A DNA stretch of 44,102 nucleotides from a virus: UHGV virus genome UHGV-0016039; one strand, given 5' to 3'. This document shows positions 7,067 to 12,014 of this stretch, one piece after another; the stretch's first letter is position 1; the number at the start of each line of letters is the position of its first letter. Under the pieces are notes generated by a model. The model was not told the DNA's origin, did no database searches, and was given only the letters and a program-made list of their open reading frames with translations. A program made the position numbers and the translations under genes.

Positions 7067-8491
7067 ATGGCAAGATTCCGACGCCGCGAATATCAGAAGT
7101 TGATAACCGCGTTCATCCTCAAGCATAAGCGATGTAATATCTGGGCGACAATGGGATCCGGTAAAACCGGCGCGACAATGTGGGCGCTGAATAAAATGTT
7201 CCAGACTGGCGTCCTGTCCCATCATGAGGACCGCGTACTGGTGCTGGCCCCGCTGCGTGTTGCGTCGGGTACATGGCCCCCGGAACAGGAGAAATGGCGG
7301 TTCTCATCCCTGCTGGTCGTAGACGGCACCGGACCGGAGAAGGACCGTATTGCCGCGCTTGAGAGCGACGCTAACGTGGTTTGTGTTAACTACGATGTGG
7401 TTGAGTGGCTGGTCGACTATTACGGCGATGCGTGGCCCTTTACGGTCGTTGTTGCCGATGAATCGACTAAGCTGAAAGGCTATCGAAGCAAGCAGGGGAG
7501 CAAGCGCGCCCGCGCACTGGCAGCGATTGCACATAAACACGTCAAGCGCTGGATTAACCTTACCGGCACACCCGCACCCAACGGGCTGAAAGACTTATGG
7601 GGTCAGACGTGGTTTGTCGACGGTGGCGAACGCCTCGGCAGTAGCTATAAGGCATTTACCGACCGCTGGTTTATTAGCAAGCCTGTTAAGCCTGGCAGCT
7701 TCACTATGCAGCACGCCCCGCTCAAGAACTCCGAGAAGGAGATCCAACAACGCCTGTCTGACGTATCCCTTACCGTTGACGCGGCTGAATACTTCGGATG
7801 TGACAAGCCAATCTATACTCCGGTTGTTGTGGACCTGCCGAAGAAAGCCCGCAAGATTTATGACCAGTTCGAAGCGGAGCTATTTGCCGAACTGGAAAGC
7901 GGAACGGTGGAGGCGGCGAACGCGGCTTCGAAGACTATTAAGTGCCTTCAGCTTGCTTCCGGGGCCGTGTATAAAGTCGACGAAGACGGCGAGCGCACCG
8001 ACGAATGGGTGAAAATCCACGACGCTAAACTGGACGCGCTGGAAAGTATCGTGGAGGAGTTGAACGGCGCACCGTTGCTCGTCGCGTACCAGTACAAGCA
8101 TGACCTGGCGCGTCTCAAGAAGAAATTCCCGCACGGCGTAGCGATGGGTAAGGGTAAGCAAGGCAATAAGGACATGGAAGCGTGGAACAGGGGCGAGATC
8201 CCCATCATGTTCGCACACCCGGCATCGGCGGGTCACGGCCTTAACTTGCAGGATGGCGGACACCACCTTGCCATCTTCTCCGACACCTGGAACTATGAGC
8301 ATTTTTCGCAGATTGTGGAGCGTATCGGGCCGGTTCGCCAGATGCAAGCCGGACACCCTCGTCCGGTATTCGTCTACATTATCCAGGCGCGCGGAACACT
8401 GGACGAACTGGTCGCCGAGCGTCGCGACAGTAAGCGAGATATACAGGACGACTTGATGGAATACATGAAAGCTAAAAAGGCGCGCAAATGA
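7067..8491 (+). CDS. SNF2-family (DEAD/DEAH-box) helicase
   Basis: ATG 7067; Walker A ATMGSGKTG, VVADESTKLKG, LTGTPAPNGLKDLW. Confidence 0.88.
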   Translation: MARFRRREYQKLITAFILKHKRCNIWATMGSGKTGATMWALNKMFQTGVLSHHEDRVLVLAPLRVASGTWPPEQEKWRFSSLLVVDGTGPEKDRIAALESDANVVCVNYDVVEWLVDYYGDAWPFTVVVADESTKLKGYRSKQGSKRARALAAIAHKHVKRWINLTGTPAPNGLKDLWGQTWFVDGGERLGSSYKAFTDRWFISKPVKPGSFTMQHAPLKNSEKEIQQRLSDVSLTVDAAEYFGCDKPIYTPVVVDLPKKARKIYDQFEAELFAELESGTVEAANAASKTIKCLQLASGAVYKVDEDGERTDEWVKIHDAKLDALESIVEELNGAPLLVAYQYKHDLARLKKKFPHGVAMGKGKQGNKDMEAWNRGEIPIMFAHPASAGHGLNLQDGGHHLAIFSDTWNYEHFSQIVERIGPVRQMQAGHPRPVFVYIIQARGTLDELVAERRDSKRDIQDDLMEYMKAKKARK

Positions 8492-9183
8492 TTATCTGGT
8501 CATTATTTGACGGCAGCGGATTGATGATCGAGCGTGCTGCCGAGATGGGGCATAAGTGTTATTGCTTCAACTACTCCGAAGCCGATCACGGGTCTTACCT
8601 GGACTACCGGATCTATGGTCGCGGTATCCGATATCGTAATGAGTTTATCGATCTGGACTTTGTAGACCGCGCGATGAATGGCGATTTCGGTACGCCAGAT
8701 ATCATCTACGCATTCCCGCCGTGTACTGATCTGGCGGTGAGCGGTGCGCCAGCTTTCCCGCGCAAACGCGCCCGCGACCCGGCCTTCCAGCTTAAGGCGG
8801 TGCGCACCGCGAAGATCGCAGCTTACCTGGGTGACTTCTTCGAAGTGCCATATATGATTGAGAATCCGCGCAGTGTGCTTTCCACCCAGTGGCGTAAGCC
8901 GGACCACTCGTTTGATCCGTGGGAGTATGGGGGATATCTGCCGGAGGATGACGTACACCCGCTCTTCCCTGAATACATCAACGCCCGCGATTCATATCCG
9001 AAGCTGACCTGCTTATGGGCCGGCAACGGCTTCCGTATGCCGGAGAAGAAACCTGTTTTCGTTGAAAAAGGGTACTCGAAACAGTATAGTCGCCTCGGTG
9101 GTAAATCCGCTCGTACAAAATTAATCCGGTCGCTCACTCCGCGCGGCTTCGCGATAGCGGTTAACGAGGAAAATTTAAAATGA
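8488..9183 (+). CDS. minimal C5-cytosine methyltransferase-like protein (motif I/IV/VI-like, no obvious target-recognition domain)
   Basis: SLFDGSG (FxGxG-like), FPPCTDLAVSG (PC motif), MIENPRS (ENV-like); ATGA overlap with helicase stop. Confidence 0.45.
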   Translation: MIIWSLFDGSGLMIERAAEMGHKCYCFNYSEADHGSYLDYRIYGRGIRYRNEFIDLDFVDRAMNGDFGTPDIIYAFPPCTDLAVSGAPAFPRKRARDPAFQLKAVRTAKIAAYLGDFFEVPYMIENPRSVLSTQWRKPDHSFDPWEYGGYLPEDDVHPLFPEYINARDSYPKLTCLWAGNGFRMPEKKPVFVEKGYSKQYSRLGGKSARTKLIRSLTPRGFAIAVNEENLK

Positions 9184-9503
9184 ATACTACATTCGACGCC
9201 ATCGACTTTTCAGTGGCAATGACCAATCAGCTTTTTTCCTACGACAGTAAGACCGGCGTCATCCGCCTGAAGTCCACCGGACGCAAAATTGGCAACCTTA
9301 ACACTGCCGATGGCGGAACACGTATCGAATGCAACGGCAAGACGCTGTCCGGCGCACGCGTGGCGTGGATTATTGAGACGGGCAATACAATCCCTCCAGG
9401 CTTCGCCGTTGTGTGCCGCCAGCGCACTCCAGGGCACTACGGCAACCGCATGAGCAACCTGTATCTGGTAGACGTTGCGCGCGACCCAAATTTTTATTCG
9501 TAA
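9180..9503 (+). CDS. HNH_3-like domain protein, catalytic motif apparently degenerate
   Basis: ARVAWIIETGNTIPPGFAV..GHYGNRMSNLYLV resembles HNH_3 pattern but lacks a clear DH..N core; ATGA overlap at 9180. Confidence 0.4.
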   Translation: MNTTFDAIDFSVAMTNQLFSYDSKTGVIRLKSTGRKIGNLNTADGGTRIECNGKTLSGARVAWIIETGNTIPPGFAVVCRQRTPGHYGNRMSNLYLVDVARDPNFYS

Positions 9504-9507
9504 ATTG

Positions 9508-9536
9508 GTTGCACAACCATATTGGTTGCATTATAT
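9508..9536 (+). promoter_or_regulatory. sigma70-like promoter TTGCAC-17bp-TATATT with ATTGGTTGCA elements
   Basis: TTGCAC 9508-9513, TATATT 9531-9536; TTGGTTGCA at 9505 and 9521. Confidence 0.5.
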
Positions 9537-9539
9537 TGA

Positions 9540-9565
9540 GGGTGTCCGGTTTGGACGCCCTTTTT
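9540..9565 (+). terminator. hairpin plus T5 run (terminator for upstream operon or attenuator in 5' leader of gene at 9585)
   Basis: gggtgtccgg ttt ggacgccc followed by ttttt, starting about at the predicted TSS. Confidence 0.45.
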
Positions 9566-9584
9566 AATACCTGGAGACAGTGAT

Positions 9585-9827
9585 ATGAAATCATTATTTT
9601 TCGACTACGACGGCGACCTTCGATTTTGGGTGCTCCTCACCCTCATGATTGCCGGCTGTATTGGCATACCTTCGACGGCTATTTACTACACGGAACGCTA
9701 CGAATGCAAGACCGTGTATGCCGAGCAAACCGGACGCAATACCCAATGGCGCTATGGTGTCTGCTGGGTGGAGATGAACGGTAAATTTATCCCACGCAAT
9801 GAAATCCGCACCACGGAGATTAAATAA
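9585..9827 (+). CDS. small membrane protein (80 aa, one TM helix)
   Basis: ATG 9585 preceded by GGAG; FWVLLTLMIAGCIGIPSTAIYY. Confidence 0.5.
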   Translation: MKSLFFDYDGDLRFWVLLTLMIAGCIGIPSTAIYYTERYECKTVYAEQTGRNTQWRYGVCWVEMNGKFIPRNEIRTTEIK

Positions 9828-10286
9828 GTGAAAATTTTACAAGAAGAGAAAAATTACGGGGCCGCGCAATGCCTCGAAGCCCGCGAACAGGCCGAACGCG
9901 CGAACGCGCTGGCGGACACCTACCTGGCGAGCTATGAAGGCGAGGAGAAGGCGCGCAAGGAATTAGAGGAGCGCTTCGATCTGCTGTATGAGTTGATGGG
10001 TATTATGCAGCGCACCGGATACACCACCACCGTCGCGCTAAACCGCATCACTGCCGAAGGTCTGCGCGAGCATTGCAAACGTGCCGAGGCGTACGTGCGC
10101 CCCAAAGGTCACCAGTCTAAGATCGACCGGAAAGACCTGGTGCTTATGGCGTGGCGCGCAAACGGTAGCTACTACTCCGATTGCCGACCGCTTAGCGTCG
10201 AGGGGGGAAAGCGCCTGCAACGCGTTCTAAACAGTGGTAAGAAAATTGCCCTGTACGCGATAGATCAAGACCATGCAGAAGAGTGA
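9828..10286 (+). CDS. hypothetical protein (152 aa), helical/coiled-coil N-terminus
   Basis: ORF track; GTG start directly after upstream stop. Confidence 0.4.
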   Translation: MKILQEEKNYGAAQCLEAREQAERANALADTYLASYEGEEKARKELEERFDLLYELMGIMQRTGYTTTVALNRITAEGLREHCKRAEAYVRPKGHQSKIDRKDLVLMAWRANGSYYSDCRPLSVEGGKRLQRVLNSGKKIALYAIDQDHAEE

Positions 10287-10758
10287 GCAGAAAGATAGCT
10301 GGCGCACACCGCCAGCTTTATTTAAACCGCTGCGCCGTAAGTTCCGATTCCGTTACGATATGGCGGCAAGCGACGCCAATCATCTGCTACCGCGTTACTT
10401 CACGGCAGAGCACAGCGCGCTTGATGTGGACTGGGCAGAGTTGAAAGGGTGGAAATGGTGCAATCCGCCGTATTCCGATCCGCTGCCGTGGGTGGAATGC
10501 GCAGCGCACGGACGGCGGACTGTCATGCTACTGAATCAGGACACGTCGACTAAGTGGGCGAAGTTGGCCCGGAAGACTGCAAACCTGATAATTCTTCTGG
10601 ACTGGCGGATTAGATTCATTCACGCCGTCACCGGCGAAGTCGGTCCGAGCAATAACAAGTGCCAGCAATTGATAATCTTTGACGAAGCGCCACCCCTCGG
10701 CAGCGCACAAATTGAAATAATGAGCGAAGGAGAACTCCTTGAATATCTTAATCGTTGA
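10273..10758 (+). CDS. dam: DNA N6-adenine methyltransferase (phage Dam-type)
   Basis: WRTPPALF N-terminus and NPPY catalytic motif (WCNPPYSDP). Confidence 0.8.
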   Translation: MQKSEQKDSWRTPPALFKPLRRKFRFRYDMAASDANHLLPRYFTAEHSALDVDWAELKGWKWCNPPYSDPLPWVECAAHGRRTVMLLNQDTSTKWAKLARKTANLIILLDWRIRFIHAVTGEVGPSNNKCQQLIIFDEAPPLGSAQIEIMSEGELLEYLNR

Positions 10759-10963
10759 CCGCGACCCTGCGGTCGTAGACCGAATGCAAAAAGACTACGG
10801 CATTGACCCGCGGCGCAATCATGTGGTGCGCGCATCTCATCCCGGACGCATCATGGGCCTTGACCTCAACGGTTGGCTTGTCATGACTCAGCGTTGCCAT
10901 TTCGTATGCAACTCCTTTACTGCGCGAAGCGCCCGACAGACACTTATTGAGAGCTTAAAATGA
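10739..10963 (+). CDS. hypothetical protein (74 aa)
   Basis: TTG start at 10739, 6 nt after AAGGAG; ATGA overlap with next gene. Confidence 0.4.
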   Translation: MNILIVDRDPAVVDRMQKDYGIDPRRNHVVRASHPGRIMGLDLNGWLVMTQRCHFVCNSFTARSARQTLIESLK

Positions 10964-11430
10964 AATTACTGATTTGCGATTTGGATGGCGTTATTAATGG
11001 TTCAAGCGATGCGCGTGCCGACCTGGTTCCGGGCATAAAAACAAAATCCACCTTCTGGGCGAAGTGGCACAAAGCGCACGTCCGCGAAGACCTGAACATG
11101 GATATGCTGCCGCTGTTGCGCATGTACAAAGAGCAAGGCTTCGAGATCGCGTATCTGACAAACCGGCAGCTAGAATGTTGGGACACCACCGCCGAGCAAT
11201 TGGAGGTCTTCCCGGTAGGCAGGTTATTCATGCGCCACATGCTGGACGACACCCCGCCGCCAGAGTTTAAAGCGTGCGCTGTGTTCAAAATGGTCTGCTA
11301 TGCGGACGTATCGGAACTGGTCATCATTGAAGACTGTCCGAAGAACATCGCGGCAATTCGTCGGGCGTGCAGCGATTTAATCCCGAAAATTTACGCAATA
11401 AACGTTGCAAAATTTACTTGCAACCAATAG
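10960..11430 (+). CDS. HAD-superfamily phosphatase-like protein (possible nucleotidase)
   Basis: motif I LICDLDGVI, motif II AYLTNR, acidic motif IIEDC. Confidence 0.6.
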   Translation: MKLLICDLDGVINGSSDARADLVPGIKTKSTFWAKWHKAHVREDLNMDMLPLLRMYKEQGFEIAYLTNRQLECWDTTAEQLEVFPVGRLFMRHMLDDTPPPEFKACAVFKMVCYADVSELVIIEDCPKNIAAIRRACSDLIPKIYAINVAKFTCNQ

Positions 11431-11441
11431 GTTGGTTGCAG
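11418..11441 (+). promoter_or_regulatory. perfect 10-bp inverted repeat TTGCAACCAA-tagg-TTGGTTGCAg (candidate operator/promoter element)
   Basis: palindrome read directly from sequence, 50 bp upstream of ATG 11493. Confidence 0.45.
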
Positions 11442-11492
11442 TATCTTAATCACGTCGGGGGCAATACCGCCTCCACTAAAAAGGAAAACATC

Positions 11493-12014
11493 ATGAAAGC
11501 ATACGAATACTGCAAAAACGCCGCTACCACTATGGAACAGCGCGGGAAAGAAAACGGCTATGACAACGCGAAAGAAGAACGCAGCGCTAAACAGATCGCC
11601 GCCGTGTTTAACGCGCTTACCGGGCGCGACCTTACCGAGCAAGAAGCCTGGACCTTCCTGATCTGTCTGAAGCTGGTGCGCCAGAACCGTAAGCACCAGG
11701 AAGATAACATCGTGGATCTGGTGGCGTATGCCGCCCTGCTGGGCGAGTCTTACATGACCGTGCATGACGAGATTCAGATCGACACAACGGCAGCGCAATA
11801 CGGCAGCCTAAAAGGTTGGCCCATCGCCACCGCAGGGACGTGGCATCCTTCGTCATCGGTGGGTAAGACTGTCAATGCCGAAATTAGCGGTATTGCGGGT
11901 CAAGAATTCCAGCCTATGGTCGTGCTCACCGGCGAAGACGGATCGAAAATCTGCATGACGCAGGAAGATTTCCGTATCATGGAAAAAACACTGGTGACTA
12001 GTGCACTTAAATAA
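11493..12014 (+). CDS. hypothetical protein (173 aa)
   Basis: ATG 11493 preceded by AAGGAA; ORF track frame 11367..12014. Confidence 0.55.
   Translation: MKAYEYCKNAATTMEQRGKENGYDNAKEERSAKQIAAVFNALTGRDLTEQEAWTFLICLKLVRQNRKHQEDNIVDLVAYAALLGESYMTVHDEIQIDTTAAQYGSLKGWPIATAGTWHPSSSVGKTVNAEISGIAGQEFQPMVVLTGEDGSKICMTQEDFRIMEKTLVTSALK

What the first reader, a model, noticed from the sequence alone, without database searches (positions are those of the whole stretch)
8488..11430. Cluster of DNA-modification-type genes
Within 3 kb lie a 231-aa protein with C5-methyltransferase motifs I/IV/VI but too short for a canonical target-recognition domain, an HNH_3-like protein whose catalytic motif looks degenerate, a Dam-type N6-adenine methyltransferase (NPPY) and a HAD-like phosphatase. 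This could mean multiple methylation or a non-canonical base modification, with the truncated C5-MTase fold and HNH-like protein acting as specificity or DNA-binding partners.
Basis: partly seen in the sequence, partly recalled or inferred. Interest (0 to 1): 0.6.

Follow-up and report, generated by a model that had tools for sequence, protein, structure and literature searches.

The report
Ordinary phage methyltransferase gene cluster
This is the standard early-gene block of a Dhillonvirus coliphage, carrying two independent stand-alone DNA methyltransferases, a catalytically dead HNH-type remnant and an end-healing-type phosphatase; it is already annotated in about 150 phage genomes and shows no sign of an exotic DNA-modification pathway.

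Summary
The window is a Dhillonvirus (HK578-like) E. coli siphophage. The 3-kb block is found at 80-95% identity in about 150 deposited phages, where it is already labelled Dcm-like C5-MTase, homing endonuclease, Dam-like MTase and phosphatase.

- **107-aa protein:** an I-HmuI-like His-Me finger domain that lacks the catalytic His. It is under purifying selection. In relatives that lack both methyltransferases it still sits after the SNF2 helicase, so it is not a methyltransferase partner.
- **161-aa protein:** a PF05869 Dam, the family I recall as holding the GATC-specific M.EcoVT2Dam.
- **156-aa protein:** a PNKP-type HAD phosphatase.
- **74-aa ORF between the last two:** a homolog of Ksap1, the known KpAvs2 trigger.

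Double methylation (m5C plus m6A) is likely. A non-canonical base modification, or a role for the HNH-like protein as a specificity partner, is not supported. Verdict: already known, low interest.

The parts
7067..8491 (+). SNF2-family DNA helicase (context gene). Its stop codon overlaps the C5-MTase start (ATGA).
   Evidence: PF00176, E 2.2e-10. Annotated as a 1425-bp 'DNA helicase' in Oekolampad, BF9 and SSL-2009a. Overlap seen.
8488..9183 (+). Minimal (231-aa) DNA cytosine-C5 methyltransferase of the phage 'Dcm-like' family (phrog_757). Catalytic Cys79, Glu125.
9180..9503 (+). 107-aa HNH_3/I-HmuI-like His-Me finger domain without the catalytic His and without a C-terminal DNA-binding domain. 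Probably not a nuclease.
9585..9827 (+). 80-aa protein of unknown function (phrog_18961).
   Evidence: dN/dS 0.11-0.27.
9828..10286 (+). 152-aa protein of unknown function. The database label 'DNA ligase' is unsupported.
   Evidence: phrog_10530 carries the label. No Pfam or NCBIfam match. One depositor wrote 'Possible DNA ligase but no evidence'.
10273..10758 (+). 161-aa Dam-type N6-adenine DNA methyltransferase (PF05869, NPPY motif).
   Evidence: PF05869, 1.8e-35. TIGR01712 scores 86.5 bits, below its cut-off. 37% identity to the methyltransferase of Stx-converting phages. M.EcoVT2Dam is reported to target GATC (PMC6602927). dN/dS 0.03-0.09.
10739..10963 (+). 74-aa homolog of Ksap1, the Dhillonvirus protein that activates the K. 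pneumoniae Avs2 defence.
   Evidence: 79.7% identity over 74 aa to SECphi18. The paper describes Ksap1 as 74 aa and located between a methyltransferase gene and a phosphatase gene (PMC11564622).
10960..11430 (+). 156-aa stand-alone HAD phosphatase of the PNKP-phosphatase type (motif I DLDGV).
   Evidence: phrog_415, 1.2e-36. 38% identity to a protein hitting PF25109 HAD_PNKP at 8e-12. 27% identity to the KarlJaspers 'putative polynucleotide kinase', which hits PF25109 at 2e-22. dN/dS 0.02-0.04.

Best explanation
The region is the accessory part of the early (replication and nucleic-acid metabolism) operon of a Dhillonvirus. It encodes independent, self-sufficient enzymes rather than one pathway.

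The 231-aa protein is a minimal SAM-dependent DNA cytosine-C5 methyltransferase. Cys79 attacks C6 of a flipped-out cytosine and Glu125 protonates N3. Its recognition element is very short, conserved and DNMT3-like, so it probably works as a dimer. It makes 5-methylcytosine on phage and host DNA, possibly at CCWGG.

The 161-aa Dam makes N6-methyladenine, probably at GATC.

Both act after replication. They give partial protection against restriction enzymes whose sites overlap theirs. The cost is that they can set off methylation-sensing defences such as retron Eco1/Ec86.

The 107-aa protein is a domesticated, nuclease-dead His-Me finger domain. Its conserved neighbour is the SNF2 helicase, not the methyltransferase. 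The HAD protein is a PNKP-type phosphatase, acting on 3'-phosphate ends or on nucleotides. The 74-aa ORF is Ksap1.

Shown here: fold, motifs, homology, selective constraint and gene context. Shown elsewhere for homologs: 5mC formation and GATC specificity. Inferred: activity and specificity of these particular proteins, dimerisation, and the role of the HNH-like protein.
For: Genome identity: 144 phage records cover at least 80% of the block at 80-95% identity, and all are Dhillonvirus-like. Depositors' annotations agree with this reading.

C5-MTase:
- Motifs I, IV and VI and a C-terminal PRGF motif are invariant.
- The model has pLDDT 90.
- It is 53% identical, E 1e-85, to KarlJaspers Bas06 Dcm. 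Residues C82, E128 and K175 of that protein align with C79, E125 and K172 here.
- The K42 ortholog (711 bp) raised 5mC in msDNA by LC-MS when expressed alone. A C82A/E128A/K175A/K176A mutant did not.
- A later paper restates this (PMC12916289).

Dam: PF05869, 1.8e-35. It is related to the Stx-phage methyltransferase. M.EcoVT2Dam is reported as GATC-specific.

No site avoidance: CCWGG occurs 144 times against 69 expected, and GATC 147 times against 167 expected.

Independence of the parts:
- Neighbours of the short MTase differ in Drexlerviridae, Vequintavirus, Sashavirus and a Vibrio phage.
- HNH-like relatives follow the helicase in contigs L010 and L011, which lack both methyltransferases.

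Purifying selection acts on all four genes.
Against: - No experiment exists on this phage's own proteins.
- The CCWGG specificity of the family is assumed rather than mapped. In the preprint, dcm+ MG1655 carrying the empty vector showed only low msDNA methylation, so the phage enzyme may differ from host Dcm in site or substrate preference.
- The 231-aa protein has no significant sequence similarity to E. coli Dcm and no Pfam PF00145 hit.
- The Dam scores below the TIGR01712 equivalog cut-off.
- The HNH-like protein keeps a conserved His84 in an inserted 'PGHY' segment, so residual nuclease activity cannot be excluded.
- Its start codon overlaps the stop codon of the MTase gene, which allows translational coupling.
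Confidence: 0.8

Rival explanations
1. One reading: the cluster is one composite system that installs a non-canonical base modification. The short C5-MTase fold and the HNH-like protein would serve as specificity or DNA-binding subunits, and the HAD would process an intermediate.
For: The genes are adjacent, and the helicase, MTase and HNH-like genes are chained by ATGA overlaps. The MTase has an unusually small recognition region. The HNH-like protein is nuclease-dead yet constrained.
Against: The homolog makes 5mC on its own. The components do not co-occur outside this genus. No accessory modification enzymes were seen among the window ORFs scanned. The HAD is of the PNKP type. Dhillonviruses are described as restriction-sensitive compared with truly hypermodified phages.
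Confidence: 0.04
2. The short enzyme transfers a carboxymethyl group from host-made Cx-SAM, as CmoX does, giving 5-carboxymethylcytosine in addition to or instead of 5mC.
Against: CmoX is defined by an SPPC motif plus a phage CmoA neighbour. Here the motif is FPPC and no CmoA-like gene was seen. The homolog's product co-migrated with a 5mC standard. From memory, DNMT3A also has Arg at this motif-X position and uses SAM. The residue equivalence was not mapped here.
Confidence: 0.03
3. The 231-aa protein is not an active DNA methyltransferase in this phage. It would be, for example, a binding-only or regulatory protein, or an RNA methyltransferase like DNMT2.
Against: Every catalytic residue is invariant and dN/dS is 0.01-0.04. 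It is 53% identical to an enzyme with demonstrated DNA 5mC activity.
Confidence: 0.07
4. The 107-aa HNH-like protein is still an active nicking or homing endonuclease that uses alternative residues such as His84.
For: His84 is conserved in the closest relatives P0126-P0128. The overall fold is that of the I-HmuI catalytic domain. Depositors label it HNH or homing endonuclease.
Against: The canonical general-base His, the preceding Asp and the distal Asn are all replaced. There is no DNA-binding C-terminal domain. The gene has a fixed position and is under purifying selection across the genus, unlike a mobile homing gene.
Confidence: 0.15

Closest known systems
Phage K42 / KarlJaspers (Bas06) 'Dcm', the trigger of retron Ec86 (Retron-Eco1)
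   Same: Same family and architecture: about 231-236 aa, 53% identity end to end, identical spacing of the catalytic Cys and Glu, and the same C-terminal GGKS...IRSLTPRGFA motif.
   Different: It comes from a different phage family (Drexlerviridae) with different neighbouring genes. K176 of K42 is Leu173 here. Activity and retron triggering have not been tested for the Dhillonvirus protein.
DNMT3A/DNMT3B catalytic domain
   Different: Only 13-17% identity. DNMT3 enzymes are eukaryotic, multidomain, and work as DNMT3L-assisted tetramers on CpG. No oligomer prediction was made here.
E. coli Dcm / M.EcoRII-type CCWGG methyltransferases
   Same: Same chemistry and fold superfamily. The homolog is proposed to act on a CCTGG site.
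   Different: Half the size (231 against 472 aa). No significant profile similarity beyond motif IV. No Vsr partner gene.
M.EcoVT2Dam / PF05869 phage Dam family
   Same: The 161-aa protein hits PF05869 at 1.8e-35, carries NPPY, and is 37% identical to the Stx-phage enzyme.
   Different: It scores below the TIGR01712 equivalog cut-off. GATC specificity is inferred, not tested. That M.EcoVT2Dam belongs to PF05869 is from my memory.
I-HmuI and HNH_3 homing endonucleases
   Different: It lacks the catalytic His and the distal Asn, and lacks the C-terminal AP2/NUMOD-type DNA-binding part. It is not mobile within the genus.
CmoX DNA cytosine C5-carboxymethyltransferase (Synechococcus phage S-B43)
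   Different: No SPPC motif, no CmoA and no CmoY ligase.
T4-type PNKP phosphatase domain (PF25109 HAD_PNKP)
   Same: HAD motif I DxDG, and homology by transitivity to PF25109 members.
   Different: It is stand-alone, with no kinase domain. It does not itself reach a PF25109 hit. The substrate is unknown.

Membership tests
DNA cytosine-C5 methyltransferase superfamily | Class I SAM-MTase fold that superposes specifically on C5-MTases | tested here: met
DNA cytosine-C5 methyltransferase superfamily | Motif I FxGxG, motif IV Pro-Cys nucleophile, motif VI ENV-like Glu | tested here: met
   F7-x-G9-x-G11, P78-C79 and E125-N126-P127 are invariant in 33 homologs.
DNA cytosine-C5 methyltransferase superfamily | Match to Pfam PF00145 at its gathering score | tested here: not met
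   No Pfam hit even at E up to 10. A few homologs carry a precomputed PF00145 hit. A profile search against PDB gives only M.HaeIII at E 0.62.
DNA cytosine-C5 methyltransferase superfamily | Sizeable, variable target-recognition domain between motifs VIII and IX | tested here: not met
   231 aa in total, of which about 180-186 align to the core. The intervening residues 143-186 are as conserved (0.78) as the catalytic motifs.
DNA cytosine-C5 methyltransferase superfamily | Formation of 5-methylcytosine in DNA | not testable with these tools
   Shown by LC-MS for the 53%-identical K42 homolog.
Phage short 'Dcm-like' family (phrog_757; K42 Dcm) | Full-length homology at about 225-250 aa | tested here: met
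   phrog_757 at 9e-82. BLASTP at 1e-85 with 53% identity. 2212 homologs, mostly of about 225-250 aa.
Phage short 'Dcm-like' family (phrog_757; K42 Dcm) | Residues mutated in the inactive K42 control (C82, E128, K175, K176) | tested here: met
   C79, E125 and K172 are conserved. K176 is Leu173 here.
Phage short 'Dcm-like' family (phrog_757; K42 Dcm) | CCWGG target | not testable with these tools
   Only inferred in the preprint, from msDNA site mutants. The window has 144 CCWGG sites, with no avoidance.
E. coli Dcm / EcoRII methyltransferase family | Sequence homology to Dcm across motifs and the recognition domain | tested here: not met
   hhalign probability 0.35%, with only 25 columns aligned around motif IV.
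CmoX carboxymethyltransferases | SPPC motif | tested here: not met
   The sequence reads AFPPC. The criterion is from PMC12783734.
CmoX carboxymethyltransferases | Arg replacing HhaI Asn304 in motif X | tested here: inconclusive
   Arg219 is invariant in PRGF, but no residue-level superposition was available.
CmoX carboxymethyltransferases | Phage-encoded CmoA (and usually a CmoY ligase) in the genome | tested here: not met
   None was seen among the ORFs scanned across the window or in the annotations of relatives. Not every small ORF was scanned.
PF05869 phage Dam | Pfam gathering score and the (D/N)PPY motif | tested here: met
   122.6 bits against a cut-off of 28.1. The motif reads WCNPPYSD.
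PF05869 phage Dam | NCBIfam TIGR01712 equivalog cut-off | tested here: not met
   86.5 bits against a cut-off of 97.05.
HNH_3 / I-HmuI-type HNH endonucleases | Beta-beta-alpha-Me fold | tested here: met
HNH_3 / I-HmuI-type HNH endonucleases | Catalytic His (in 'DH') and the distal metal-binding Asn or His | tested here: not met
   'IDHxN...DNR..NLR...EN' in canonical relatives reads 'VVCRQ...GNR..NLY...RD' here.
HNH_3 / I-HmuI-type HNH endonucleases | Pfam PF13392 match | tested here: not met
   No Pfam hit at E up to 10.
HAD superfamily, PNKP-phosphatase type | Motif I DxDx(T/V) and homology to PF25109 members | tested here: inconclusive
   DLDGV is present. There is no direct PF25109 hit. 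The protein is 38% identical (E 5e-34) to a PF25109 member and matches phrog_415 at 1e-36.

The most novel reading that the evidence does not exclude
The very short, invariant recognition region and the motif-X Arg of this phage-wide C5-MTase family could give it a behaviour unlike host Dcm. Possibilities are a different or much shorter target than CCWGG, action on hairpin or single-stranded DNA, or occasional use of host Cx-SAM to make 5-carboxymethylcytosine. Separately, the His-less HNH domain could be a DNA-binding accessory factor of the SNF2 helicase.
Probability: 0.07. Interest if true: 0.5.

Novelty: already known. Interest (0 to 1): 0.15.

Why it matters
It matters little as a discovery. 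The block is a conserved, already annotated feature of a well-sampled coliphage genus, and its most unusual gene belongs to a family whose activity has been published.

It has practical value for predicting phage-defence interactions. The short C5-MTase family triggers retron Eco1/Ec86, and the embedded 74-aa gene is the Ksap1 trigger of KpAvs2. This 3-kb stretch therefore holds at least two known defence triggers.

Two modest questions remain open: the true recognition sequence of the minimal C5-MTase family, and the role of the constrained, nuclease-dead HNH domain.

Tried and rejected
- Pfam and NCBIfam gave nothing for the 231-aa and 107-aa proteins, even at E up to 10.
- phmmer against PDB sequences gave nothing for either protein. 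A family profile gave only M.HaeIII at E 0.62.
- hhalign of the family profile against E. coli Dcm was not significant, so the 'Dcm-like' label cannot be justified by sequence.
- PDB sequence searches for the HAD and the Dam gave only chance-level hits.
It was rerun without that row.
- Look-up of P0127 found no contig.
- The idea that site avoidance might reveal specificity was dropped. CCWGG is over-represented and GATC is close to expectation, which says nothing about specificity.
- I considered treating the HNH-like gene as a decaying homing-endonuclease pseudogene. I rejected that because dN/dS is 0.04-0.10 and its length is conserved.
- I considered CmoX membership and rejected it on the SPPC and CmoA criteria.
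- The promoter and terminator scan gave nothing beyond chance that bears on the question.
- No residue-level structural superposition was available. The equivalence of Arg219 to DNMT3A Arg891, HhaI Asn304 and CmoX Arg350 rests on remembered sequences and is only a lead.


Full report
**What the window is.** The 2943-bp finding matches 158 phage records by megablast. Of these, 144 cover at least 80% of it at 80-95% identity, and nearly all are Escherichia or Shigella phages of the genus Dhillonvirus. The best match is phage BF9 at 92%. The rest of the window fits this assignment. It encodes a DUF2800/PD-(D/E)XK nuclease, an Enc34-type SSB, a family-A DNA polymerase, an SNF2 helicase and an AAA_25 primase-helicase. 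It also encodes terminase, portal, tail and lysozyme genes. In BASEL phage Oekolampad the same genes are annotated as 'Dcm-like C5 cytosine methyltransferase', 'putative homing endonuclease', 'Dam-like N6-adenine methyltransferase' and 'putative phosphatase'.

**Check of the observation.** The ORFs lie exactly at the stated coordinates. Pairwise Nei-Gojobori dN/dS against Oekolampad, BF9, mckay and SSL-2009a is as follows:

| Gene | dN/dS |
|---|---|
| 231-aa C5-MTase | 0.01-0.04 |
| 107-aa HNH-like | 0.04-0.10 |
| Dam | 0.03-0.09 |
| HAD | 0.02-0.04 |

All four are real genes under selective constraint.

**The 231-aa protein.**
- *Sequence searches.* Pfam and NCBIfam find nothing. PHROG 757 'DNA methyltransferase' matches at 9e-82. 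The large protein database returns 2212 homologs, mostly of about 225-250 aa. tblastn finds the family in 1512 phage records from Escherichia, Klebsiella, Salmonella, Vibrio and other hosts.
- *Motifs.* In an alignment of 33 homologs (57-84% identity to the window protein) the invariant residues are F7/G9/G11 (motif I), P77-P78-C79 (motif IV), E125-N126-P127 (motif VI) and a C-terminal GGK...TK.IRSL.PRG motif.
The stretch that replaces it (residues 143-186) is as conserved as the catalytic motifs, at 0.78 mean column identity. This suggests one fixed specificity across the whole family.
- *The 'Dcm-like' label.* A profile comparison with E. coli Dcm aligns only motif IV and is not significant. 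The label describes chemistry, not sequence kinship.

**What is known about this family.** A bioRxiv paper (10.1101/2023.08.16.553469) isolated mutants of phage K42 that escape retron Ec86. K42 is 95.4% identical in genome to KarlJaspers Bas06. All the escapers disrupted a 711-bp dcm gene. Expression of that gene alone from pBAD raised 5mC in the retron msDNA, as measured by LC-MS. A C82A/E128A/K175A/K176A mutant did not. Mutating the CCTGG site in the msDNA stem abolished defence. A 2026 paper restates this as accepted (PMC12916289).

I fetched KarlJaspers. Its 711-bp 'Dcm-like' CDS has C82, E128, K175 and K176 at exactly those positions. It is 53% identical (E 1e-85) to the window protein over the whole length, aligning with C79, E125 and K172. 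The short enzyme is therefore very probably an active, self-sufficient 5mC methyltransferase.

The CCWGG assignment is weaker. The authors assumed it by analogy with host Dcm. In their dcm+ MG1655 background the empty-vector msDNA showed only low methylation, so the phage enzyme may differ from host Dcm in site or substrate preference.

**The 107-aa protein.**
- *Relatives.* It is nearly confined to this genus. The indexed search found 5 clusters, and the exhaustive search of 1.8 billion representatives found 16 hits.
- *Motif.* Aligned with canonical HNH_3 relatives, the motif '...HR.aW...IDH.N...DNR..NLR...EN' becomes '...AR.AW...VVCRQRTPGHYGNRMSNLYLVDVARD'. The general-base His, the preceding Asp and the distal Asn are all gone, and the C-terminal AP2-like domain is missing.
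The constraint on the gene argues for a domesticated, probably non-catalytic function rather than a decaying homing gene.

**Is it a partner of the methyltransferase?** Two tests say no.
1. The short MTase has different neighbours elsewhere. In KarlJaspers it sits among small hypothetical genes, with the Dam 7 kb away. In a Vequintavirus it is next to an AAA ATPase. In Sashavirus it is next to a GTP-binding-domain protein. In a Vibrio phage it is next to a thymidylate-synthase-like gene.
2. The closest relatives of the HNH-like protein outside the genus occur without any methyltransferase. In contig L010 the gene directly follows the SNF2 helicase gene. In L011 the order is helicase, DUF7167, HNH-like, two small ORFs, HAD_PNKP and then tail genes, with no C5-MTase and no Dam.

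The conserved backbone is therefore helicase, HNH-like and HAD, and the two methyltransferases are accessory insertions into it. The ATGA overlaps that chain helicase, MTase and HNH-like genes are ordinary phage gene packing.

**Dam and HAD.** The 161-aa protein hits PF05869 at 1.8e-35 and carries NPPY. It is 37% identical to the methyltransferase of Stx-converting phages. M.EcoVT2Dam of such a phage is reported to target GATC (PMC6602927). That M.EcoVT2Dam belongs to PF05869 is from my memory.

The 156-aa HAD protein has motif I DLDGV. It is 38% identical to a protein that hits PF25109 (PNKP phosphatase domain) at 8e-12. It is 27% identical to the KarlJaspers 'putative polynucleotide kinase', which hits PF25109 at 2e-22. 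This is an end-healing or nucleotidase type of enzyme, not one known from base-modification pathways.

**Hypermodification.** No CmoA, CmoY-type ligase or nucleotide-level modification enzyme was seen among the window ORFs I scanned. CmoX enzymes are defined by an SPPC motif, an Arg replacing HhaI Asn304, and a phage CmoA (PMC12783734). The window protein has FPPC and no CmoA. It does have an invariant Arg219 in 'PRGF', which may sit at the motif-X position. From memory, DNMT3A also has an Arg there and uses SAM, so this is only a lead. The BASEL paper describes Dhillonviruses as comparatively sensitive to restriction-modification systems, unlike the deazaguanine-modified Queuovirinae. The window shows no avoidance of CCWGG (144 sites against 69 expected) or of GATC (147 against 167).

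**Other content of the block.** The 74-aa ORF between the Dam and the HAD is 79.7% identical to the corresponding SECphi18 ORF. It matches the published description of Ksap1 as 74 aa and located between a methyltransferase gene and a phosphatase gene. Ksap1 is the protein that KpAvs2 binds in order to sense Dhillonviruses (PMC11564622).

**Verdict.** The 'multiple methylation' reading is likely. The 'non-canonical modification with partner subunits' reading is not supported. The block is an already known and annotated feature of a well-sampled phage genus, so interest is low. Two questions remain: the real target sequence of the minimal C5-MTase family, and the function of the nuclease-dead HNH domain that travels with the SNF2 helicase.

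Noticed in passing
window 10739-10963 (+): The 74-aa ORF between the Dam and the HAD is the Ksap1 homolog, the activator of K. pneumoniae Avs2. It is 79.7% identical to SECphi18. Across Dhillonviruses it varies far more (54-97% identity) than its flanking genes. The window copy has Val30 and Met39, as in the non-activating SECphi6-type variant, but keeps Phe60, Leu47 and Thr50.
   Followed up: partly
window 9828-10286 (+): This 152-aa protein carries a propagated 'DNA ligase' label (phrog_10530, RefSeq SSL-2009a). It has no Pfam or NCBIfam support, and one depositor wrote 'no evidence'. It is the least constrained gene of the block (dN/dS 0.2-0.4).
   Followed up: partly
L008 (phage mckay) 1601-2296; L009 (SSL-2009a) 2293-2628: The mckay C5-MTase gene has a 1-nt deletion at nt 578 that removes the invariant C-terminal motif. 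The SSL-2009a HNH-like gene is frameshifted at about codon 74. Truncated MTase clusters (148-195 aa) also occur in metagenomes. These are either natural loss, which would fit escape from retron Eco1, or sequencing errors.
   Followed up: partly
L010 271-612; L011 1513-4682: In relatives that lack both methyltransferases, the HNH-like gene still follows the SNF2 helicase gene (69-78% identical helicase). This hints at a functional link between the dead HNH domain and the helicase.
   Followed up: partly
window 11367-12014 (+), likely start 11493: This DUF6378 protein (PF19905, 1.5e-09) carries PHROG labels of 'phosphofructokinase', which look doubtful. Its orthologs in the four compared phages all differ by indels.
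   Followed up: no
whole window: CCWGG occurs 144 times against 69 +/- 9 expected from dinucleotide-preserving shuffles, a two-fold excess. GATC is slightly below expectation (147 against 167).
   Followed up: no
L005 (Vibrio phage SUMAE) 3983-6009: There the short C5-MTase homolog sits directly upstream of a 406-aa 'thymidylate synthase'-annotated gene. This pairing could be worth checking for pyrimidine hypermodification.
   Followed up: no
window 10297-10317: A perfect 8-bp GC-rich hairpin (AGCTGGCG...CGCCAGCT) lies just inside the start of the Dam gene, next to its overlap with the preceding ORF. It was flagged as terminator-like on both strands.
   Followed up: no
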